Shown piece after piece: positions 12,009-63,600 of a DNA stretch of 64,000 nucleotides (position 1 is the stretch's first letter; each line of letters starts with the position of its first letter). The DNA lies in sequence record MG748548, one strand, 5' to 3'. The DNA is from Escherichia phage EP335. Under the pieces are notes generated by a model. The model was given only the letters and a program-made list of their open reading frames with translations, was not told the DNA's origin and did not search any database. Made by a program: the position numbers and the translations under genes.

Positions 12009-13673
12009 ATGCAACAAACTTCATATGCGTACCTCCGTAGTCGAGACCCACGCAATCAGATTTATGGTGTAAGTCAGGGAGGGGCACAAGCCTCTCCTTA
12101 TGTTCCTCGTCCTGCTTACCCACAAGCAGATATGTCTGTTTATACCCGTCCTAATATGGCTCCTGCTGGATTAGCTGGATTGGTTTCTCAGGCTAATGAA
12201 GATCAAGAAGCAATGCTTGGTCCAAACAAACAAGTTGTTCAGGGTGCTAATATCCAACCTGATATTCCTAACGAAACTCCTGTAGCAGCCTCTCAGTCAG
12301 CTTCTCCGTTTGCTAACGATGAAAGCATGGTTGCTGCTGGCCTTTCTCCAGAAACTGCTTCTCAAGAGTTCTCAGACCCTCTACCGGTAAGTGTTCCTCC
12401 TAAACCGTTGGAACCTACTGATACAGAGTTTACTCAAGACCAAGTTAAACAGGCACAACAGGTTATGTCAACCCTTTCTTCCGGCTTACCTGAAGCTGAA
12501 GGTATGGCAGGTGCTTCTCGTAGCGCTGATCAAGAACGTGTTAACAAGGATTTAATGGAAGTGGCTAAGGCTAAGAACCCGATGGAAGAGTGGGGTAAGT
12601 TACAGAAACAACCTTTCTATCAGAACTCTAGCTTCTATACAGGTTTGATGGGTGTAGGTCTTTCTATTATGTCAGGTAAGTCTCCTATTGAAGCTTTCCA
12701 GATTGGTTCTGGTATGGCTGCACAGGATGAGACTAAGAACCAACTTGAAGCTAACCGCGAATCTCTTATTGAACAGGGTTACTCTCCAGACTCAGTTGCT
12801 GCTGCAATTGCTACTGGTGACCCTTCTGCTCTGAAGATGCGTCAGATTAGTCCTCAAGAGAAACTTGCTTTGTCTGCTATCGAAGATGAGAGAGCTAACC
12901 GTGAATGGGACAGACGCCAACAGGTTAGTGAGCAGTCTATGAGTCGTAGGATGGATGCAACTCGCCAAGCTGCTGAACAACGTGCACAAGAACAGTTTGC
13001 TCGTCAGAAAGAGTTGATTGGGTATCGTGATCAAGTGAAAGCTGATCGTGCTGAACAAGCTGCTAAGAGTTTTAATTTTAACCCGAAAGAAGTTCGTCTT
13101 GCTCAGAACACAGCTGAAGGTACAGTTGCTAAGCAGTGGGCAGAGAAAGGTGGTCTGTTTAACCAGTCCCATAAAGACTTGGACTTGGCAGATCAGGCAG
13201 TTAAAGATAAAGACTACCAGACAGCTCGTTCTGCTTACATGCAGGCTATCATGAACTCCGCAAGGGCTGAAATCGGTGCTACTCGTTCTCTGACTGAAGA
13301 AGACTTACGTCACTTTGCAGAAGACCCCTCAATCTTTGTTAAGGTTGGTAATACTTGGTCTCTGAAAGGTGGGTATCGTCCTACTGATGCTGCTCTTGCT
13401 TATGCTCGTAAGCAGGCAACCGTTGGTGCTACTTCAGCAATGAAGGGTGTTAAGGATGCTAAGAAAGCAACCATTGAAGCTTACGTTGGTTCTGGTATGG
13501 ATAAGAAACGTGCTACTGCACTTGTTAACCGTGCGATACCTTCTGGTGGTTTCTATGACCCGTTAGGTACTTTTGAATCACAGGCTGAGGAAGAGGTTGG
13601 TGGTGCTGCTACTAATCCACGCCTGAATGGTGCTCTTTCAGCTTCTGAAGATACTAGCTGGTTCACTCAATAA
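12009..13673 (+). CDS. Virion protein (function unknown)
   Basis: AGGAG RBS then ATG at 12009 (track start at 11946 lies inside the upstream gene); 554 aa. Confidence 0.5.
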   Translation: MQQTSYAYLRSRDPRNQIYGVSQGGAQASPYVPRPAYPQADMSVYTRPNMAPAGLAGLVSQANEDQEAMLGPNKQVVQGANIQPDIPNETPVAASQSASPFANDESMVAAGLSPETASQEFSDPLPVSVPPKPLEPTDTEFTQDQVKQAQQVMSTLSSGLPEAEGMAGASRSADQERVNKDLMEVAKAKNPMEEWGKLQKQPFYQNSSFYTGLMGVGLSIMSGKSPIEAFQIGSGMAAQDETKNQLEANRESLIEQGYSPDSVAAAIATGDPSALKMRQISPQEKLALSAIEDERANREWDRRQQVSEQSMSRRMDATRQAAEQRAQEQFARQKELIGYRDQVKADRAEQAAKSFNFNPKEVRLAQNTAEGTVAKQWAEKGGLFNQSHKDLDLADQAVKDKDYQTARSAYMQAIMNSARAEIGATRSLTEEDLRHFAEDPSIFVKVGNTWSLKGGYRPTDAALAYARKQATVGATSAMKGVKDAKKATIEAYVGSGMDKKRATALVNRAIPSGGFYDPLGTFESQAEEEVGGAATNPRLNGALSASEDTSWFTQ

Positions 13674-18885: not shown

Positions 18886-19066
18886 AACCTACATCCATAT
18901 CATCCTCCTGCCAGACTCGTTTGTTAACACGGTGACTAACCTTGTCAGCTTTAGGGATACGACCAGTACGTTGATCAAACAGTTGGTGTTTAATCTTCTG
19001 ATCTTTACGAGTTTCACGGTTAGGTGAAGTTTCATCATAAGTACGGTAGTTGAATTTATTACCCAT
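18872..19066 (-). CDS. Small basic protein
   Basis: AAGGA RBS before internal ATG at 19066; Lys/Arg-rich 64 aa. Confidence 0.4.
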   Translation of the reverse strand: MGNKFNYRTYDETSPNRETRKDQKIKHQLFDQRTGRIPKADKVSHRVNKRVWQEDDMDVGYGEG

Positions 19067-19898
19067 TATCAATATCCTTATTCCAAATTTTATCAAGCCA
19101 TGACCACTCGAAGAGGTCTTCTGGTGTTTGACCTACGAATAGGAGACGAGCATTCTCAAGCATCTTCTCTTCCCATTCTGTATCAAACTTCTTATAATAT
19201 TCCATTCGCACTATATGATAAAGAGTCCACTTATCACTTACACCTTGTAAAAGGTTGATAGCGGCTTTCTTTCCAACCCCTTGACGACGGAGTTGTAACT
19301 TACCTCCCCACATAACTTCCTCACGTTCGCCACAACCGGGAATGTTATCTGTTCCATCACCAATGAGCATTTGATAAAAGAAGTTTTGCCAAGCAACCTC
19401 ATCTGATACATAGTGAGGAGGAACCTCTTTCTGCCTTTCTCCACATGCCCACCGATAATGCCAACCGGGAGTTATCAGTAAATCTTTGTCTCGTGTACAG
19501 ATGATGGTGTTCTTGTCAGTTCGCTGCCTTTCTGCTAATGCGTCATCAGCCTCTCTTCCGTAAACATCTATATACTCATAATTGTTTTTAATGTAATCAC
19601 CAACGTTCTGCCAGTGGAAAGGTCTTTCTCCCGGAGGTCGGTTGGCTTTGTATCCTTGCTGCTTTGCTACATCAAAACGGAAGTTACCGCCTTCACTGAA
19701 ATAGAAGACTGTCTTTCGACAGCCAGCGCGAGCAATGATTGTATCAAGTTTGTTTTGAAGTCGTTCAATTAGAAATCCATAATCTACTGGTGTACGTCCT
19801 GTATCTAGGAAAGGATGCTCCTGAGTCAGAGCACCCACTTCGTATCGGAGAACATCAGCATCCACTAAAGCTACTTCAGGATACTTAACGTCTTCCAT
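19059..19898 (-). CDS. 5'-3' exonuclease / flap endonuclease (FEN family)
   Basis: Motifs GYKANR, GREADDALA, CTRDKDLL and GDGTDNIPG match the metal-binding motifs of T5 D15 / Pol I 5' nuclease family; RBS GGGGAG. Confidence 0.85.
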   Translation of the reverse strand: MEDVKYPEVALVDADVLRYEVGALTQEHPFLDTGRTPVDYGFLIERLQNKLDTIIARAGCRKTVFYFSEGGNFRFDVAKQQGYKANRPPGERPFHWQNVGDYIKNNYEYIDVYGREADDALAERQRTDKNTIICTRDKDLLITPGWHYRWACGERQKEVPPHYVSDEVAWQNFFYQMLIGDGTDNIPGCGEREEVMWGGKLQLRRQGVGKKAAINLLQGVSDKWTLYHIVRMEYYKKFDTEWEEKMLENARLLFVGQTPEDLFEWSWLDKIWNKDIDNG

Positions 19899-19899
19899 A

Positions 19900-20491
19900 T
19901 TACTCCCCTAAAAGTTTACGAACTTCTTTCTTGAATGTTTCATACTCTTCAGGGTATTCAAACCCACACTCTAGCATTGCGTAGTGAACAACCTTAAGCA
20001 AGTCTTGAACCTTGTTCTTATCTTTGTGACGATAAGCATACTTAATCATGTTGCATTGCTGGAAATTGAGCTGAGGGTTATTTGCATAGAACATACTTAA
20101 TCATGTTGCATTGCTGGAAATTGAGCTGAGGGTTATTTGCATAGAACTCAATAGGTTGAATTTTCTTAGAGTCAGGGTCGTAGTGAGCACCACCAACCAT
20201 AACATCTAGTGCTGGACTTCTTTTGCTGGTTTGTTCAGTTGTATTCTTAAAACTGACCACAGGAACAGAAGAGTAAACTATATACTCTTCCCCTACTGGT
20301 GGTTTTACTCTTAGTCCACGCATGGCATATTCAATCTTTATGTCAGCGGAACCTGAAGCGACCTCTTCAATAGATTTTCGATAGCTGTCAATAACTGCTC
20401 TTAGCATAGAGATTGTTTTGGTCATATCTTTTACTTTCTCATTCAGTACAACAATCTCTGATTCTTTGAAATCGAACAAATTCATTTCCAC
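19900..20491 (-). pseudogene. DUF3310-like gene interrupted by a 55-bp tandem duplication (two ORFs 19900..20094 and 20078..20491)
   Basis: Both ORFs contain FYANNPQLNFQQCNMIKY; removing one repeat copy restores a single ~178-aa frame with an HY...NxIKY...R..K DUF3310-like core. Confidence 0.6.
20037..20146. repeat. Perfect 55-bp direct tandem duplication (2 copies)
   Basis: 20037-20091 and 20092-20146 are identical: catacttaatcatgttgcattgctggaaattgagctgagggttatttgcatagaa. Confidence 0.9.
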
Positions 20492-20874
20492 TCTCCAATG
20501 ATTTCCATATCAAATTTATCTCCTTTCTTCGTAAGGAGTATTGCCGGTTTATCTTTACTTTTCATGTACTCAAACATATGCAGAGAGCCTCTTGACTCTC
20601 CATCCCAGAAGACTATCGCTGAGTCAGCATACTCTCCCATGTCTACGTTTCGAAGGATACCAGCTTTCTTTCCTAAGGTTGTCCAAGAAGGGATAAACCT
20701 TTTAATACCAAGGCCGTTATGCTTAGCAATAACCTCTCCATGAGAGTCTGGCCCTTTTGCTCCCCCTGATACAACTTCAGTGAAGAGCTTAGGTATCTCT
20801 TTCGGGAGTAAATCCCACATCTGAATAAAAGAAGGCCAGTCAATAGACCGGCTTCCTGCTATAATCACTTTCAT
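20482..20874 (-). CDS. DUF2493 / SLOG-family protein
   Basis: Pattern IIAGSR...VVSGGAKGPDSHGE...GKKAGILRN...IVFWDGESRGS matches the DUF2493 (LOG/Smf-like Rossmann) family. Confidence 0.65.
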   Translation of the reverse strand: MKVIIAGSRSIDWPSFIQMWDLLPKEIPKLFTEVVSGGAKGPDSHGEVIAKHNGLGIKRFIPSWTTLGKKAGILRNVDMGEYADSAIVFWDGESRGSLHMFEYMKSKDKPAILLTKKGDKFDMEIIGEWK

Positions 20875-26527: not shown

Positions 26528-28375
26528 TCAGTGTGTGTGATTCCAGTTTAATCCAATCTGACAATCAGATGCCAGAGGGCATTCCATCTTGAGATACTCA
26601 CCAGCTTTCTTAACACAAAGCTCTGTAAGTTCTTTTAGTTTTTGTGCATCATTACGGTGAACAGAGAACTGCCCTTCATCGTGCATGTCAATAACCTTCG
26701 CACAACGAACACTATCACGCTCAATCCACTTGTTAAGGAAAAGCATGGCATACTTCATAACAATCGCACCAGCACTCTGTAAGAGTGTATTCAGTGCTTT
26801 ATGAACCATAACCTTACCTGTTGCGTCACGTCTCATTGTAATACGACGACCATCAACACCCAAGATATAACCTTGAGCTGCTTTCTCTGTCATACGCTCA
26901 ATAAGAATTGCAATACAAGGATTCTCTGCCAAGAAACGTGTTCTCATTACTGAACCTTCTTCAGAGCCTCCACCAACAATAGAACCAAGCTTAGCATCAC
27001 CTGCTCCGTAGTTGAACGCATAGATAAACGTCTTAGCGTTGTCACGAGTAGGAAGACCAGCAAGTCTCTGGTTGTGGGAGTGGATATCACCTTCTAATAG
27101 AATGTCACGATACATAACAGCAGAAGCTAAACCACGTTCAGCTAATGCTTTCTTACCAGCGTTACCTTCTGCAATTGCTTCAGCAAGCATGTCTCTACAC
27201 TCTTTAATGAGGTAGTGAGCAAGCATACGAAGTTCTAATCCAGAACCATCATAACCTAGGAAGAGTTCTCTACCAGCTGGTACATAATACTTATACAGCC
27301 CTACTGGTTTGTCTTTCTTTCCGGGTTTTCCACGTTCGTAGATAACGTTTGTATTTTTTCGTAAGTAACACCCATCAGGGATATTGTTGGTAATGATGAA
27401 AGGATAGTTATGACTATCATCTGTGGAGTAGTTAGATTGAAATAAACTCCTACACTCGTGACCAAACAGACCGCGAGAAGGAATATTAACAACAATGCGA
27501 TGTTTAAAACGAAATGTCGGAGTAGCGCAGCTATTAGCTTCCGCTGAGAGTTTACCATCTGGACGTTCCTTATCAATCAGTCCATTAATCAAGCCTAGTC
27601 TGTGAGCCGCTACAACACGTCTCTTAAGCAGACTTCCCACTTTACCTAGATCACCCTCAAGACCTTCTTCAAGAGTCTCTTCGAGGTTTGTAGGAGCTGT
27701 GGGCCACTTGTTCGAAGTAGCTAATGCTCTCTTAATTTCATCAAAGGTTACAGGTTTCTTCCTGTTAGGGTTTAAACCTAAACCAAAGACATAAGCCTTC
27801 ATGTAGTTGACAGTTTTGTGACGAAAGTGCTTATCCAAGAACTTCTTGATATCAGCATCAACCATCTGAGCTGTCTGTCGCTCTTTCTCATTGCCACGCA
27901 TCCAAGAGTTGTACCATTCTTGATACGTTCCACACTTACGCATGGCTCGCTTAATCTCAAATGTGTTCCAAGGCTTCTTAGATGTATTAAATTCTGGAGG
28001 AAGAAAACCTTCATCCATCAGTGCTTCTTTAACTCGTGCATCCTTTGATGGGTCAAAGTCAACATACTCAACACAAGTAAAAGCTCCACCAATATCTTCT
28101 CTCTTTAACCCCACTCTGTCGCAATATAATTGAGGCCACTTCTGAAGAGCACCAGTCTTCTTAAAGGGTTTCATGTAAGTAGAACCATCAACCCTCATCT
28201 TAGGTAACAGAGGAATCAGCTCTCTGTCGATGTTAACGATAATCTCTCTGAGAAGGTGAACATACCACCGTGCATTCCTCCGATTAAAGTTGACACCACT
28301 CTTCGCTTGCTTTGAAATTATATCAGCGACAGTCATCTCCGTTAAGAACGGAAGTACATCAGGGTTCTCCATCAC
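26528..28375 (-). CDS. DNA polymerase, family A (T7 gp5-like), polymerase domain only
   Basis: Motif A DGSGLELRMLAHY, motif B RDNAKTFIYAFNYGAG, motif C VIDMHDE; C-terminal half aligns by eye with the T7 gp5 C-terminus; no 3'-5' exonuclease motifs in this ORF. Confidence 0.9.
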   Translation of the reverse strand: MMENPDVLPFLTEMTVADIISKQAKSGVNFNRRNARWYVHLLREIIVNIDRELIPLLPKMRVDGSTYMKPFKKTGALQKWPQLYCDRVGLKREDIGGAFTCVEYVDFDPSKDARVKEALMDEGFLPPEFNTSKKPWNTFEIKRAMRKCGTYQEWYNSWMRGNEKERQTAQMVDADIKKFLDKHFRHKTVNYMKAYVFGLGLNPNRKKPVTFDEIKRALATSNKWPTAPTNLEETLEEGLEGDLGKVGSLLKRRVVAAHRLGLINGLIDKERPDGKLSAEANSCATPTFRFKHRIVVNIPSRGLFGHECRSLFQSNYSTDDSHNYPFIITNNIPDGCYLRKNTNVIYERGKPGKKDKPVGLYKYYVPAGRELFLGYDGSGLELRMLAHYLIKECRDMLAEAIAEGNAGKKALAERGLASAVMYRDILLEGDIHSHNQRLAGLPTRDNAKTFIYAFNYGAGDAKLGSIVGGGSEEGSVMRTRFLAENPCIAILIERMTEKAAQGYILGVDGRRITMRRDATGKVMVHKALNTLLQSAGAIVMKYAMLFLNKWIERDSVRCAKVIDMHDEGQFSVHRNDAQKLKELTELCVKKAGEYLKMECPLASDCQIGLNWNHTH

Positions 28376-38572: not shown

Positions 38573-38782
38573 TTACTTATAAAAACTTCGAATCATGTCC
38601 CAGATTTCTTCCTGCTGGACCCTAAAGAAAGCTAAACGTGTCGATGTACGTTCAATAAATTCTTCACTATGCTTTTCTCTATCTAGCATACTGACAAGCT
38701 TTTCATATTTATTGATCTTCCATCGCATTTTTAAATAGTCTGATTCCAGTGTCCTTAACCTCTGACACTCAATCAAACCCAT
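38573..38782 (-). CDS. Hypothetical protein
   Basis: 69-aa ORF. Confidence 0.4.
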   Translation of the reverse strand: MGLIECQRLRTLESDYLKMRWKINKYEKLVSMLDREKHSEEFIERTSTRLAFFRVQQEEIWDMIRSFYK

Positions 38783-39201
38783 TAGTTATCCTCTGACAGA
38801 TAAAGAGACCAGTCACCAGATTCAACCAGCTCATCCTGCTCTTCATCGATGTGATAAATCCAAGCAGTGATAGTTTCACCACTATCCATTACAACTTCGA
38901 TAGGAGTACGCTTATAGAAAGTGTGTGGGTTGTCATTACCGCGATGCCCTTCCAGCATATCATAAGCACCCTCAACACCATCCATATCCGTCTTAAATAC
39001 TTCAACACGAACAGGTTTACCGTTGCTGTTGTGTTCCAGAGAAACACTTGGGAAGTATGAACCACCGTAGCGGTACAAGTTGTAGTTTTCTTTAGTGAAG
39101 CCTTCACCAATTGATTCAGCACCTGCACGAGCATTCACTCGGAAGTTGGCCTGACCAGTGCGAAGAGAACCGTAAGTTGCTACATAAATTACTTCTGACA
39201 T
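38782..39201 (-). CDS. Gamma-glutamyl cyclotransferase-like (AIG2/GGCT family) protein
   Basis: N-terminal VATYGSLRTGQ (YGSL motif) and downstream AYDMLEG with conserved Glu. Confidence 0.6.
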   Translation of the reverse strand: MSEVIYVATYGSLRTGQANFRVNARAGAESIGEGFTKENYNLYRYGGSYFPSVSLEHNSNGKPVRVEVFKTDMDGVEGAYDMLEGHRGNDNPHTFYKRTPIEVVMDSGETITAWIYHIDEEQDELVESGDWSLYLSEDN

Positions 39202-41582: not shown

Positions 41583-43601
41583 TTAATTATGACCTTTACA
41601 GTGCACTGAATCGCACACCACTTGATTGGTATTGTTTAGTGTGCAGAGTTCTGCATCACGCCACGGAATCTTTTTAAAACAGACTGCACAAAACCCAAGA
41701 GTAGACCAGAGGGCTTTTGTGAAGGTTGCTGATCGGTTTCCATCGAAGGACGCAACTGTTCTGGTAATTGAGACTTTTGACTCACGAAAGGTTTCCGCTG
41801 CTGGAGCGGGTTCCTCCTTTGGGGTAGTCACTGCAATAGCATAAACACCACCCCAACGCTTCTCAATGTAAGCACCGAACACATCTTCCAGAGTGATTTC
41901 ACTCTTACGTTTGGTTGAGGATTCCATGACAATCATGTTGTCCAGAATCTTTTGATCAACACGAAGAGCTACTTCAGGACGTCGAGCACTTGTTGTATCA
42001 ACATACTTGGTCCAAACATAACCCTCTTTCAGAGTGACTTGAGTTGCTTGCTTCTTTGCTTTATTAGCACAGATTTTACAAACATCGTCACCACGAAGTT
42101 TACTGAACTCTTCATCAAATTCAAAGTCAGACTTCACTTCGCCGCACACTGAACAAACGCCGATAGGAATCTCATCCTCTTCAACGTCTTCCACTTGCTT
42201 CTGGATAGAATCAAAACAAGCTTTATGCCAATATGCTTGGTATGCGAAGATCGCACTTGGTGCTTCTTTCCAGTCAATGTGCTTATCACATCCACCACAA
42301 TCACCGTGGGAATGGGCTTCCCAGAACTTACGAGTGATAGTCACCCCATTCTTGCTGACAAAACTATCCTCTGCATCAAAAGGGATATCATCATCGAAAT
42401 CAGCTGTAGTGCTTTCCGGCTCCTTTTTCGACAAGTCAAAGAAGTGACCAGAGATCAACACCAAACGAATCATGCTATTAACTTCAGAGATACAGCCAAC
42501 CGTACCACGGTAAACCATATGCTTGTTCTTAAGAGCAGCTTCGTAATCAGTTTGCAGGATGTTATGAACATCACCCTCAATATACTCTTGAGCTTTGTCA
42601 TCATAAATATAACCAACCATCTTACCGCGATCGGTATCTTTATAACAAACAAACTCGTGAGGAATAATATCAACCTGCATATCACGACGGACATCAACAC
42701 CTTTGTCAGAGGCGATCTTGTTTTGTTTCAAGATTGCTTCACGACGACGTACATCACCTGCGGTTACGCCGGGCTTTCTTTGCTCGTCGCTGTTCCCGTT
42801 TACGTAACTTTTTGTCACGCTTGAGTGATTGTTGCTGTAGCTGTTCGAGTAATAACTTCCCCAACGCGTTGCTACCGTAAAAACCGGGAGTTCATGTACG
42901 ACCTCCTCTACCAAAGTCATCTTGTTGTCAGAAACATCAAAGATGTACTCTGTACCGACTTTACACTCAAAGTGCTCATCAATTCGGTTCTTGTGGCTCT
43001 TAGAACGCTGAAGAATCCACATTAGCATCGCTTCTTCTGAAGCACCAAACCATGAAGTTCCCAGACGGGCCAGATGGAAAGGACGTTCATCGTTACGAAT
43101 GATGTGAAGACGGTTATCACTTGCATCATGCCAGATTAGAGTGAATGCACCATCCAACTTCTGAATAGTCTCTGCTGCACCAATCTTGTTAATAGAGTGG
43201 CAGATGTTCTCACTATCAACCTCAAAAGCCTTACTGTCAGGCAGAAGGTCTTGATCAACTAAGGTTCCGTTATGAACCAGAGTAATATTTCCGTGAGAGA
43301 ATGGGTGAGCGTTACGTGAGTTAATAGCGCCTTTCGTAGCATGTCGGCTGTGACCAACAATCCATGAAGGAGGCACTGTGTAATTAGTAAGGCCAGTTGT
43401 CAGCTCGGTGTACTCTTTCTGTAACATGAAAGCATAGGAAGGCAGTGCTTCTTTGTAAGAGAACACAGATCTTTCGCTTTTACGCTGACCGAAAATACCA
43501 GTTGAGTGTTGACCACGAAATACACCAGCATAAAGAAGCTGGTTGTAAATATCTAAGTCATAACTTGAGAGGCTTCCACCTGCTAATACGATACCACAAA
43601 T
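41583..43601 (-). CDS. Class II (Ntn-hydrolase) glutamine amidotransferase domain protein with Cys-rich C-terminal extension; probable non-canonical ATT start
   Basis: Frame stays open 45 codons above the track start; first codons after the in-frame TAG are AAA ATT TGT GGT ATC (K-I-CGIV..., classic Ntn Cys1 context); AGGTGG sits 8 nt upstream of ATT; GHSRHATKG...NAHPF...LVHNG follows. Confidence 0.65.
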   Translation of the reverse strand: MCGIVLAGGSLSSYDLDIYNQLLYAGVFRGQHSTGIFGQRKSERSVFSYKEALPSYAFMLQKEYTELTTGLTNYTVPPSWIVGHSRHATKGAINSRNAHPFSHGNITLVHNGTLVDQDLLPDSKAFEVDSENICHSINKIGAAETIQKLDGAFTLIWHDASDNRLHIIRNDERPFHLARLGTSWFGASEEAMLMWILQRSKSHKNRIDEHFECKVGTEYIFDVSDNKMTLVEEVVHELPVFTVATRWGSYYSNSYSNNHSSVTKSYVNGNSDEQRKPGVTAGDVRRREAILKQNKIASDKGVDVRRDMQVDIIPHEFVCYKDTDRGKMVGYIYDDKAQEYIEGDVHNILQTDYEAALKNKHMVYRGTVGCISEVNSMIRLVLISGHFFDLSKKEPESTTADFDDDIPFDAEDSFVSKNGVTITRKFWEAHSHGDCGGCDKHIDWKEAPSAIFAYQAYWHKACFDSIQKQVEDVEEDEIPIGVCSVCGEVKSDFEFDEEFSKLRGDDVCKICANKAKKQATQVTLKEGYVWTKYVDTTSARRPEVALRVDQKILDNMIVMESSTKRKSEITLEDVFGAYIEKRWGGVYAIAVTTPKEEPAPAAETFRESKVSITRTVASFDGNRSATFTKALWSTLGFCAVCFKKIPWRDAELCTLNNTNQVVCDSVHCKGHN

Positions 43602-45396: not shown

Positions 45397-46284
45397 TTAC
45401 GCTACCTGTAAACGTTTCAAGAACACATCTGCTTCACGAACATCGTTGGTGTTGATGATCTGGTGCAGCTTTTCAATCGGAAGGCGAGAGTGGAGGCCCA
45501 TCAAGAACTCCATGTCGCTGTTTTGTACAACCTTGTCAACTTGATCATACACAAATTGACGATCTTCTTTCTTGCCAATCCAGAAGTTTGACAGAGAGCG
45601 ATACTCAATGCCATAAGGTTTGTAACGGATTGCGGATGCTTTACCGTATAGCTCTTTACGACGAGCATCACCGTCCATCAGAACAGCAGGCAATGACAGG
45701 AAGTAATCACACAGAACGCCCAGCATCATCTGAACCTTCTTATTCACATCCAGAGAGCCAGTGACACCGATATGCACATGACCGCCTGCTGTACGCAAGC
45801 CCTTGTTCTCTGAAGTTGGGGAAGCATTCTTTTGACCAGTGAATGCGTTGAAGTCTGGAGTACAACCAAACACGAAAGCGGACGGATGGAATGATTCCAA
45901 TTCTTCTTTAGAGAAGATATGAGAACTTACACCCAGAGCCGCTTCCATGTCCTGTTTCTTCAGAACTTCGTTGGTAAGATCAATACCACGCTGAACGTTG
46001 TCATTAAACGCTTCAAAACCTTGTTGTGGGTTGATATCAAATTCAGCAAGAACGTTGTCTTCTTGGAGACGAACATCCTTAGCCAGATCGATTTTATTTT
46101 CTTTAGAACAGCCCAGCTTTCCAGCAACAGAGGTGATGATGCCAGAAGAAGTACGAACAAACATTTCAGGGTCAGTGCCGATTAAAAAGATGCGCTTAGT
46201 CATTGTAGTATTCCACCAATTCTTTAAAGAGGGATGTGATTGTTTCTTTGTTGCTCTCTGTACTAGAGTCACAACGACTTTCAA
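45397..46284 (-). CDS. Second amidoligase-like protein (GCS2-like)
   Basis: IGTDPEMFV and GGHVHIGV in positions analogous to the first amidoligase. Confidence 0.5.
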   Translation of the reverse strand: MKVVVTLVQRATKKQSHPSLKNWWNTTMTKRIFLIGTDPEMFVRTSSGIITSVAGKLGCSKENKIDLAKDVRLQEDNVLAEFDINPQQGFEAFNDNVQRGIDLTNEVLKKQDMEAALGVSSHIFSKEELESFHPSAFVFGCTPDFNAFTGQKNASPTSENKGLRTAGGHVHIGVTGSLDVNKKVQMMLGVLCDYFLSLPAVLMDGDARRKELYGKASAIRYKPYGIEYRSLSNFWIGKKEDRQFVYDQVDKVVQNSDMEFLMGLHSRLPIEKLHQIINTNDVREADVFLKRLQVA

Positions 46285-63236: not shown

Positions 63237-63600
63237 CATATAATGTATGTTGTTACATGATGCTATTGTTAGCGGCTTGCGGAAGTAATATACCAATCAA
63301 ATATTTCGCTACTGACGTAGCTCATATGCTTCACTCATCAAACTATCACGCACTGCGTGCAACGCTGAAAAAGAAAAGATTAAAAGAATAACATAAAGAA
63401 ACAATTAAAAGAATAATAATAACATCAATTATTAAATCCAATCTAATTAATACATACATCATTAATCCACTCATAATCATCACACTAATCATTATTTACA
63501 TTCAAACTATGGGGCGATGTGATTGTTACTATCCGGTATTATTAGTCATGAAATGGTGTGCCCTGTACAGTGCTGGCCTCTCATACCCTCCCAATTAATG

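What the first reader, a model, noticed from the sequence alone, without database searches (positions are those of the whole stretch)
20037..20146. Perfect 55-bp tandem duplication frameshifts a DUF3310-like gene
Two identical adjacent 55-bp copies (20037-20091, 20092-20146) split what would be a single ~178-aa ORF into 20078..20491 and 19900..20094, both retaining FYANNPQLNFQQCNMIKY. Because 55 is not a multiple of 3, the duplication frameshifts the gene. It could be a recent inactivating mutation, a phase-variable on/off switch by repeat gain and loss, or an assembly artefact.
Basis: seen in the sequence. Interest (0 to 1): 0.6.

Follow-up and report, generated by a model that had tools for sequence, protein, structure and literature searches.

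The report
Untrimmed assembler overlap splits phage gene
The perfect 55-bp tandem duplication is real in the deposited sequence, but it is almost certainly a leftover 55-base SPAdes contig-end overlap and not biology; the phage (E. coli phage EP335) really carries one copy and an intact 176-aa DUF3310 gene.

Summary
Positions 20037-20091 and 20092-20146 are identical, adjacent 55-mers, and this is the only exact repeat of 30 bp or more in the 64-kb window. The extra copy splits a minus-strand gene into 135-aa and 64-aa ORFs.

The best-supported explanation is an assembly artefact.
- The window is phage vB_EcoP-EP335. Its 729-aa ORF at 185-2374 has the residues published for EP335 gp13 (Phe236, Ala422, Ser621|Asp622, 11.8-kDa C-terminal fragment).
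- EP335 was assembled with SPAdes 3.10. I recall 55 as SPAdes' default largest k-mer for reads under 150 nt.
- An independent k=31 Logan assembly of run SRR8505896 gives one circular contig. It matches the whole window with zero mismatches except that it has one copy of the 55-mer.
- That contig's unique length is 76,567 bp, and 76,567 + 55 = 76,622 bp, the published genome size.
- The sister genome from the same paper and pipeline (EP75, MG748547) has its first 55 bases identical to its last 55.
- All six relatives aligned have one copy, and the junction is absent from three public collections.

The true gene is an intact 176-aa DUF3310 protein that shares only that domain with the T7 gp1.7 nucleotide kinase. 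I found no support for an inactivating mutation or a phase-variable switch. Interest is low: this is a curation fix.

The parts
20037..20091 (.). Copy 1 of the 55-mer CATACTTAATCATGTTGCATTGCTGGAAATTGAGCTGAGGGTTATTTGCATAGAA. One of the two copies is spurious; which one is arbitrary.
   Evidence: Absent as a second copy from Logan contig SRR8505896_131 and from six relatives.
20092..20146 (.). Copy 2 of the 55-mer, identical to copy 1. The copy1|copy2 junction (..GCATAGAA|CATACTTA..) exists only in this record.
   Evidence: The 35-nt junction is absent from IMG/VR, JGI metagenomes and GTDB genomes. 29 junction-only 31-mers are absent from the Logan contig.
20078..20485 (-). Artefactual 5' fragment ORF (135 aa from the ATG at 20485; 137 aa if read from the GTG at 20491). 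It is the N-terminal 131 residues of the true protein followed by a 4-residue frameshift tail (VLCK).
   Evidence: No Pfam hit on its own. This product is not on record in the gene index.
19900..20094 (-). Artefactual 3' fragment ORF (64 aa): the C-terminal part of the true protein, starting inside the DUF3310 domain.
   Evidence: Marginal DUF3310 hit (24.1 bits). This product is not on record in the gene index.
19900..20485 (-). The real gene. With one 55-mer removed it is a 531-nt, 176-aa ORF: an uncharacterised N-terminal region plus a C-terminal DUF3310 domain at residues 100-151. It is the orthologue of KBNP1711 gp030 and WFI101126 gp031.
   Evidence: PF11753, E 2.2e-8; phrog_26149, E 1e-106, full length. 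An intact 176-aa gene is called on Logan/ENA contigs L005-L008.
20482..20874 (-). Upstream neighbour (130 aa). Weak SLOG/YspA-like hit; called 'GTP-binding domain' in relatives. Its stop codon overlaps the ATG of the DUF3310 gene. This protein was the handle used to find the independent assemblies.
19059..19898 (-). Downstream neighbour (279 aa): 5'-3' exonuclease.

Best explanation
The second 55-mer is an assembly artefact. Phage EP335 was assembled with SPAdes 3.10. When a genome closes into a circle in the assembly graph (circular, circularly permuted or terminally redundant), SPAdes prints a linear contig whose first k bases are repeated at its end, and adjacent contigs also overlap by k. 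Here k = 55; from my own knowledge this is SPAdes' default largest k for reads shorter than 150 nt. That overlap was not trimmed. The genome was then re-opened at another position, or two contig ends were simply abutted. This placed the two copies head to tail inside the record, where they happened to fall in a coding region and created an apparent frameshift. The phage itself has one copy and an intact 176-aa DUF3310 gene. Shown directly: the exact 55-bp duplication; the single-copy independent assembly; the length arithmetic; and the 55-bp end overlap in the sister genome. Inferred: the exact manual step (re-opening versus abutting contigs), and that run SRR8505896 is the run behind the deposit.
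For: (1) Identity of the window. It is 96-97% identical to KBNP1711, and that genus has only one other species, EP335. It has one tRNA-Arg and 42.4% GC, against tRNA-Arg and 42.5% in the announcement. ORF 185-2374 (729 aa) has Phe236, Ala422, Ser621|Asp622 and an 11,838-Da C-terminal fragment, as published for EP335 gp13. (2) The announcement states SPAdes 3.10, SSPACE and HiSeq 2500, with a genome size of 76,622 bp. (3) Logan contig SRR8505896_131 (76,597 bp) closes on itself with a 30-bp (k-1) overlap, giving 76,567 unique bp; 76,567 + 55 = 76,622. (4) The window with one 55-mer removed (63,945 bp) is tiled completely by that contig with 0 mismatches. (5) A k=31 de Bruijn graph of the window as given has 4 branching nodes and 29 junction-only 31-mers at the site, whereas the single-copy version has none. 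A fixed true duplication would therefore have broken the Logan contig, yet the contig passes through and breaks about 7 kb away. (6) The sister genome EP75 (MG748547), from the same paper and pipeline, has bases 1-55 identical to bases 158,089-158,143, an untrimmed k=55 overlap. [quoted passage not shown] (8) Only 1 bp of flanking microhomology, and zero divergence between the copies. (9) All six relatives aligned have one copy, and the junction is absent from three public collections.
Against: No reads were inspected directly. The link between SRR8505896 and the deposited record rests on 100% identity and the length arithmetic, not on run metadata (a paper search for the run number found nothing). 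GenBank record MG748548 is not in the searchable collection, so I could not see its coordinates, origin or annotation. I could not show that the record was re-opened at a particular reference origin: KBNP1711's origin maps to about window 63,330-63,349, inside the window. A low-frequency two-copy subpopulation would be invisible to the Logan contig. That 55 is the default top k for reads under 150 nt is from my own knowledge of SPAdes; the read length is not stated in the paper. The announcement's figures (1,664x from 589,508 reads) imply about 108 nt per read if 'reads' means read pairs, but about 216 nt if it means single reads.
Confidence: 0.96

Rival explanations
1. A real, recent tandem duplication fixed in the sequenced EP335 stock inactivates the DUF3310 gene. 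The gene is dispensable in the laboratory.
For: The duplication is in the deposited sequence. Accessory nucleotide-metabolism genes in phages are often non-essential, and this slot is occupied by a different gene in phiEco32 and Bas89. Perfect identity of the copies would fit a very recent event.
Against: An independent assembly that is 100% identical over the whole window has one copy, and its contig passes through the site unbroken. The length is exactly the assembler's k. The same 55-bp overlap sits at the ends of the sister genome from the same pipeline. Published size = unique length + 55. There is almost no microhomology to seed replication slippage.
Confidence: 0.02
2. The stock is heterogeneous: a two-copy subpopulation coexists with single-copy phage, and SPAdes happened to report the two-copy path.
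For: Logan's simplification would drop low-coverage junction k-mers, so a minority variant is not excluded.
Against: It needs the coincidence that a biological duplication has exactly length k = 55. It also needs an assembler to prefer a minority path. It does not explain the 55-bp terminal overlap in EP75 or the exact +55 length arithmetic any better than the artefact does.
Confidence: 0.015
3. The repeat is a phase-variable on/off switch: gain and loss of the 55-bp unit toggles the reading frame of the DUF3310 gene.
For: Only the formal fact that one copy is in frame and two copies are out of frame.
Against: No copy-number variation exists among relatives: KBNP1711, WFI101126 and four metagenomic or Logan contigs all have one copy. 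Three copies are also out of frame. Known contingency loci use many copies of short units, not two copies of a 55-mer. All the artefact evidence above also applies.
Confidence: 0.005

Closest known systems
SPAdes k-mer end-overlap artefact of circular or circularly closing contigs
   Same: The repeat is exact and its length is a SPAdes k value (55). The deposited length equals the unique length + k. An independent assembly lacks it. The sister genome from the same pipeline shows the textbook form, with the first 55 nt equal to the last 55 nt. The artefact is described in PMC5923482 (127 bp) and PMC8483715 (55 bp).
   Different: Here the two copies are not at the record ends but head to tail in the interior. 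An extra manual step (re-opening or concatenation without trimming) must be assumed, and it makes the artefact look like a frameshifting mutation.
Short-read assembly repeats in phage genomes shown to be artefacts (przondovirus Tokugawa, 79-bp internal repeat; PMC10438801)
   Same: An internal repeat introduced by a SPAdes/Shovill short-read assembly, outside the terminal-repeat region, and shown by other data to be spurious.
   Different: That case was resolved by long reads and Sanger sequencing. Here it is resolved by an independent k=31 assembly and length arithmetic.
T7 gp1.7 nucleotide kinase / Pfam DUF3310 (the gene that is really there)
   Same: Both carry a DUF3310 domain near the C-terminus: T7 gp1.7 at residues 122-184 (E 4.5e-23) and EP335 at residues 100-151 (E 2.2e-8). 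PHROG families labelled 'nucleotide kinase' match the same region.
   Different: No pairwise similarity is detectable by BLASTP (E = 28), the N-terminal region is unrelated, there is no solved structure, and kinase activity is untested. The label 'dNMP kinase' on relatives is a propagated annotation.
Phase-variable contingency loci (repeat-number switches)
   Same: The change in copy number changes the reading frame.
   Different: The unit is 55 nt with two copies. There is no population or between-relative variation in copy number, and the second copy is not supported by an independent assembly.

Membership tests
SPAdes k-mer overlap assembly artefact | Repeat length equals the final k-mer size of the assembler actually used | tested here: met
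   Length is exactly 55. SPAdes 3.10 was used. Final k = 55 in this pipeline is shown by the 55-bp end overlap of the sister genome EP75. That 55 is a SPAdes default is from my own knowledge plus the precedent in PMC8483715.
SPAdes k-mer overlap assembly artefact | The two copies are exactly identical, with no biological signature such as microhomology or divergence | tested here: met
   100% identity; 0 bp left and 1 bp right extension.
SPAdes k-mer overlap assembly artefact | Deposited length = unique genome length + k | tested here: met
   Logan circle 76,597 - 30 = 76,567; the published size is 76,622; the difference is 55.
SPAdes k-mer overlap assembly artefact | An independent assembly or the reads lack the junction | tested here: met
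   The Logan k=31 contig has a single copy and is otherwise identical over all 63,945 bp. A real duplication would create branching nodes and break the contig. Direct read counts could not be made with these tools.
SPAdes k-mer overlap assembly artefact | Copies lie at the two ends of the raw contig | not testable with these tools
   The raw SPAdes contig is not available. In the deposited record the copies are internal, so a re-opening or joining step is inferred. In the sister genome EP75 they are at the record ends.
Pfam PF11753 (DUF3310) | Match to the family model above the curated gathering score | tested here: met
   The restored 176-aa protein scores 34.5 bits against a cutoff of 24, residues 100-151. 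Of the split ORFs, the 135-aa piece has no hit and the 64-aa piece scores 24.1 bits.
T7 gp1.7-type nucleotide kinase | Full-length homology to gp1.7 and nucleotide kinase activity | tested here: not met
   Only the DUF3310 domain is shared. BLASTP finds no pairwise similarity. Enzymatic activity is not testable here.
Phase-variable repeat switch | Copy number varies between close relatives or within populations | tested here: not met
   One copy in KBNP1711, WFI101126, ENA ERZ28436098, and Logan SRR35890760, ERR3393547 and SRR8505896. The junction is absent from three collections.

The most novel reading that the evidence does not exclude
The EP335 stock contains a real, unstable two-copy subpopulation whose size matches the assembler's k only by coincidence. 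In that case a 55-bp duplication and collapse would toggle expression of a T7 gp1.7-like DUF3310 protein.
Probability: 0.02. Interest if true: 0.35.

Novelty: not a real feature. Interest (0 to 1): 0.04.

Why it matters
There is no biological significance; the value is curation.
- The public EP335 genome (MG748548) most likely contains 55 spurious bases that split an intact gene into two ORFs and inflate the genome size. The unique sequence is 76,567 bp, before any terminal repeat is added.
- The companion EP75 record (MG748547) carries the same 55 extra bases at its ends, so its unique sequence is 158,088 bp.
- The announcement presents both phages as candidates for controlling STEC O157 in food, so accurate reference genomes matter.
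- More generally, exact tandem or terminal duplications of the SPAdes k values I recall (55, 77, 99, 127 bp) in phage records should be treated as assembler overlaps until reads show otherwise. A genome scanner can filter them automatically.

Tried and rejected
- Exact-product look-ups for the two truncated ORFs found nothing. Nobody else has assembled this split, but that alone does not decide the question.
- Searches for the 35-nt junction in IMG/VR, JGI metagenomes and GTDB genomes gave 0 hits each.
- A paper search for 'SRR8505896' gave 0 hits, so the run-to-record link stays inferential.
- MG748548 is not in the phage collection, so I could not see the record's annotation or origin.
- I tested whether the record was re-opened at KBNP1711's origin, which would put the window end at the record end. 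This is not supported: KBNP1711 position 1 maps to about window 63,349, inside the window. The position of the record origin remains unknown.
- I considered whether the repeat is a remnant of the phage's direct terminal repeat. Rejected: relatives' record ends and terminal-repeat features map to about window 63.3-63.8 kb, some 43 kb from the duplication.
- I considered replication slippage seeded by microhomology. Only 1 bp of microhomology flanks the unit.
- I looked for a functional assignment of the gene beyond the domain level. BLASTP against T7 gp1.7 shows no similarity and there is no PDB relative. I did not pursue structure prediction because it does not bear on the finding.
- Two exact-product look-ups (1006-aa and 107-aa ORFs) failed, probably because of different start-codon calls. 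Other proteins gave full coverage instead.

Full report
**1. Observation**

The window carries two identical, adjacent 55-mers at 20037-20091 and 20092-20146 (sequence). Tandem Repeats Finder reports period 55, 2.0 copies, 100% matches and score 222, and a string comparison confirms identity. The match extends 0 bp to the left and 1 bp to the right, so there is essentially no flanking microhomology. It is the only exact direct repeat of 30 bp or more in the 64-kb window, so it is not chance.

On the minus strand the duplication separates a 137-aa ORF (20078-20491, GTG start; 135 aa from the ATG at 20485) from a 64-aa ORF (19900-20094). Deleting one copy restores a single ORF. With the ATG at 20485, which overlaps the stop of the upstream gene and is the start annotated in relatives, the protein is 176 aa.

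**2. What the window is**

The region is 96.7% identical to Escherichia phage KBNP1711 (genus Nieuwekanaalvirus, Gordonclarkvirinae, phiEco32-like podoviruses) and about 80% identical to kuraviruses. The genus has one other species, EP335.

The EP335 genome announcement (PMC6473133) reports:
- 76,622 bp and 42.5% GC;
- one tRNA-Arg;
- 96.73% identity to KBNP1711;
- assembly with SPAdes 3.10 and SSPACE from HiSeq 2500 reads.

The window has one tRNA-Arg and 42.4% GC. ORF 185-2374 (729 aa) has Phe236, Ala422, Ser621|Asp622 and a C-terminal fragment of 11,838 Da. These are the features published for EP335 tail fibre gp13, including the 11.8-kDa loss on self-cleavage (PMC8217332). The window is therefore EP335. 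The GenBank record MG748548 itself is not in the searchable collection.

**3. Relatives have one copy**

KBNP1711 gp030 and WFI101126 gp031 are intact 176-aa genes with a single copy of the unit. The identical neighbouring 130-aa protein (20482-20874) is found on four independent ENA/Logan contigs, and each has an intact 176-aa DUF3310 gene next to it with a single copy. The 35-nt junction sequence is absent from IMG/VR, JGI metagenomes and GTDB genomes. The two truncated products are not on record anywhere in the gene index.

**4. An independent assembly of the same phage**

One of the four contigs, Logan SRR8505896_131 (76,597 bp), is 100.000% identical to the window. After fetching five overlapping pieces (L006, L009, L015, L016, L020), the window with one 55-mer removed (63,945 bp) is tiled completely with zero mismatches. 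The extra 55-mer is the only difference in 64 kb.

The contig's two ends overlap by 30 bp, which is k-1 if Logan's k is 31 (my recollection). It is therefore a closed circle of 76,567 unique bp.

As I understand it, Logan contigs come from a k=31 de Bruijn graph. I built that graph for the window. With the duplication there are four branching nodes and 29 junction-only 31-mers at the site. Without it there are none. A fixed real duplication would therefore have broken the contig at this site. Instead the contig runs straight through and is broken about 7 kb away, at window 12826-12855. The junction k-mers must be absent or rare in those reads.

**5. Arithmetic**

76,567 + 55 = 76,622 bp, exactly the published EP335 genome size.

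**6. Why 55**

From my own knowledge of SPAdes, the default k series for reads shorter than 150 nt is 21, 33, 55. A contig that closes on itself is printed with its first k bases repeated at the end.

The literature describes this artefact. [quoted passage not shown] A 79-bp internal repeat from a short-read assembly was likewise shown to be an artefact in a przondovirus (PMC10438801).

The announcement's figures (1,664x from 589,508 reads) give about 108 nt per read if 'reads' means pairs. That fits 2x125 reads and k = 55. If 'reads' means single reads, the figure is about 216 nt, so this check is ambiguous.

**7. Test on the sister genome**

EP75 (MG748547) comes from the same paper, sequencing and SPAdes pipeline. 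I fetched all 158,143 bp. Its first 55 bases are identical to its last 55. This is the textbook untrimmed k=55 overlap, and it shows both that the final k was 55 and that this pipeline did not trim overlaps.

In EP335 the same 55-bp overlap is internal. The contig must therefore have been re-opened at another point, or two ends were abutted, without trimming. That step is inferred, not shown. I could not locate the record's origin: KBNP1711's origin maps to about window 63,349.

The duplication is not related to the physical genome ends or the terminal repeat. In relatives those map to about window 63.3-63.8 kb.

**8. What is really there**

The real gene is an intact 176-aa ORF on the minus strand, spanning 19900-20485 with one 55-mer removed. 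It lies between a SLOG-like 130-aa gene and the 5'-3' exonuclease.

It has a DUF3310 domain at residues 100-151 (34.5 bits against a cutoff of 24). It matches phrog_26149 over its full length (E 1e-106) and 'nucleotide kinase' PHROGs over the domain. T7 gp1.7, the characterised nucleotide kinase, carries the same domain at residues 122-184. However, the two proteins show no pairwise BLAST similarity and no PDB relative exists. The 'dNMP kinase' label on relatives is a domain-level inference, not a tested function.

**9. Rivals**

- A fixed real duplication is contradicted by points 4-7.
- A minority two-copy subpopulation cannot be excluded without reads. It would require the coincidence that its length equals k, and it explains nothing that the artefact does not.
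- A phase-variation switch has no support. No relative varies in copy number, three copies are also out of frame, and the architecture is unlike known contingency loci.

**10. Verdict**

It is not a real feature and its biological interest is very low. The practical outcome is that MG748548 and MG748547 should each lose 55 bp. Exact duplications whose length equals an assembler's k should be filtered in genome scans.

Noticed in passing
L028 1-55 and L031 11089-11143 (MG748547 positions 1-55 and 158,089-158,143): The sister genome EP75, from the same paper and SPAdes pipeline, has its first 55 bases identical to its last 55. This is an untrimmed k=55 circular-contig overlap, so the record is 55 bp too long (unique length 158,088 bp).
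   Followed up: yes
window 19900-20485; L004 1613-2506 (phiEco32 gp34); L002 1386-1994 (Bas89_0026): The slot between the SLOG-like gene and the exonuclease holds unrelated genes in different members of the subfamily. EP335, KBNP1711 and WFI101126 have a 176-aa DUF3310 protein. phiEco32 has a 297-aa and Bas89 a 202-aa protein with only weak P-loop hits and no DUF3310. All are labelled 'deoxynucleoside monophosphate kinase' in annotations. This may be non-orthologous replacement, or it may be annotation carry-over.
   Followed up: partly
window 26528-28375 (615-aa DNA polymerase A ORF); L005 1512-4426: The family-A DNA polymerase is one ORF of about 614 aa in EP335. In the related ENA contig ERZ28436098 it is split into 451-aa and 139-aa pieces, with 144-aa and PDDEXK_5-like ORFs in and after the split. 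This suggests an inserted mobile or homing element in some relatives. HNH endonuclease genes also come and go between relatives.
   Followed up: no
window 38782-39201, 41583-43466, 45397-46203 (minus strand): A cluster encodes a GGACT-like gamma-glutamyl cyclotransferase-fold protein (139 aa), a 627-aa glutamine amidotransferase (GATase_6/7) protein and a COOH-NH2 ligase-like protein (268 aa). They lie among replication genes and are conserved across relatives. Such enzymes could act on nucleotides or DNA; their function is not established.
   Followed up: no
window 20482-20874 (minus strand): This 130-aa protein is annotated 'GTP-binding domain' in relatives. It gives only a sub-threshold hit to the YspA/SLOG family (PF10686, 22.3 bits against a cutoff of 28.2) and matches phrog_289. 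Its stop codon overlaps the start of the DUF3310 gene, which suggests translational coupling.
   Followed up: partly
window 12826-12855; L016 end and L006 end: The Logan contig for this phage closes into a circle with a 30-bp overlap and no sign of a distinct terminal repeat. Short-read graph assemblies therefore collapse whatever terminal redundancy the phage has. The true ends and terminal-repeat length of EP335 remain undetermined, and the 'linear, 76,622 bp' description is not based on mapped termini.
   Followed up: partly
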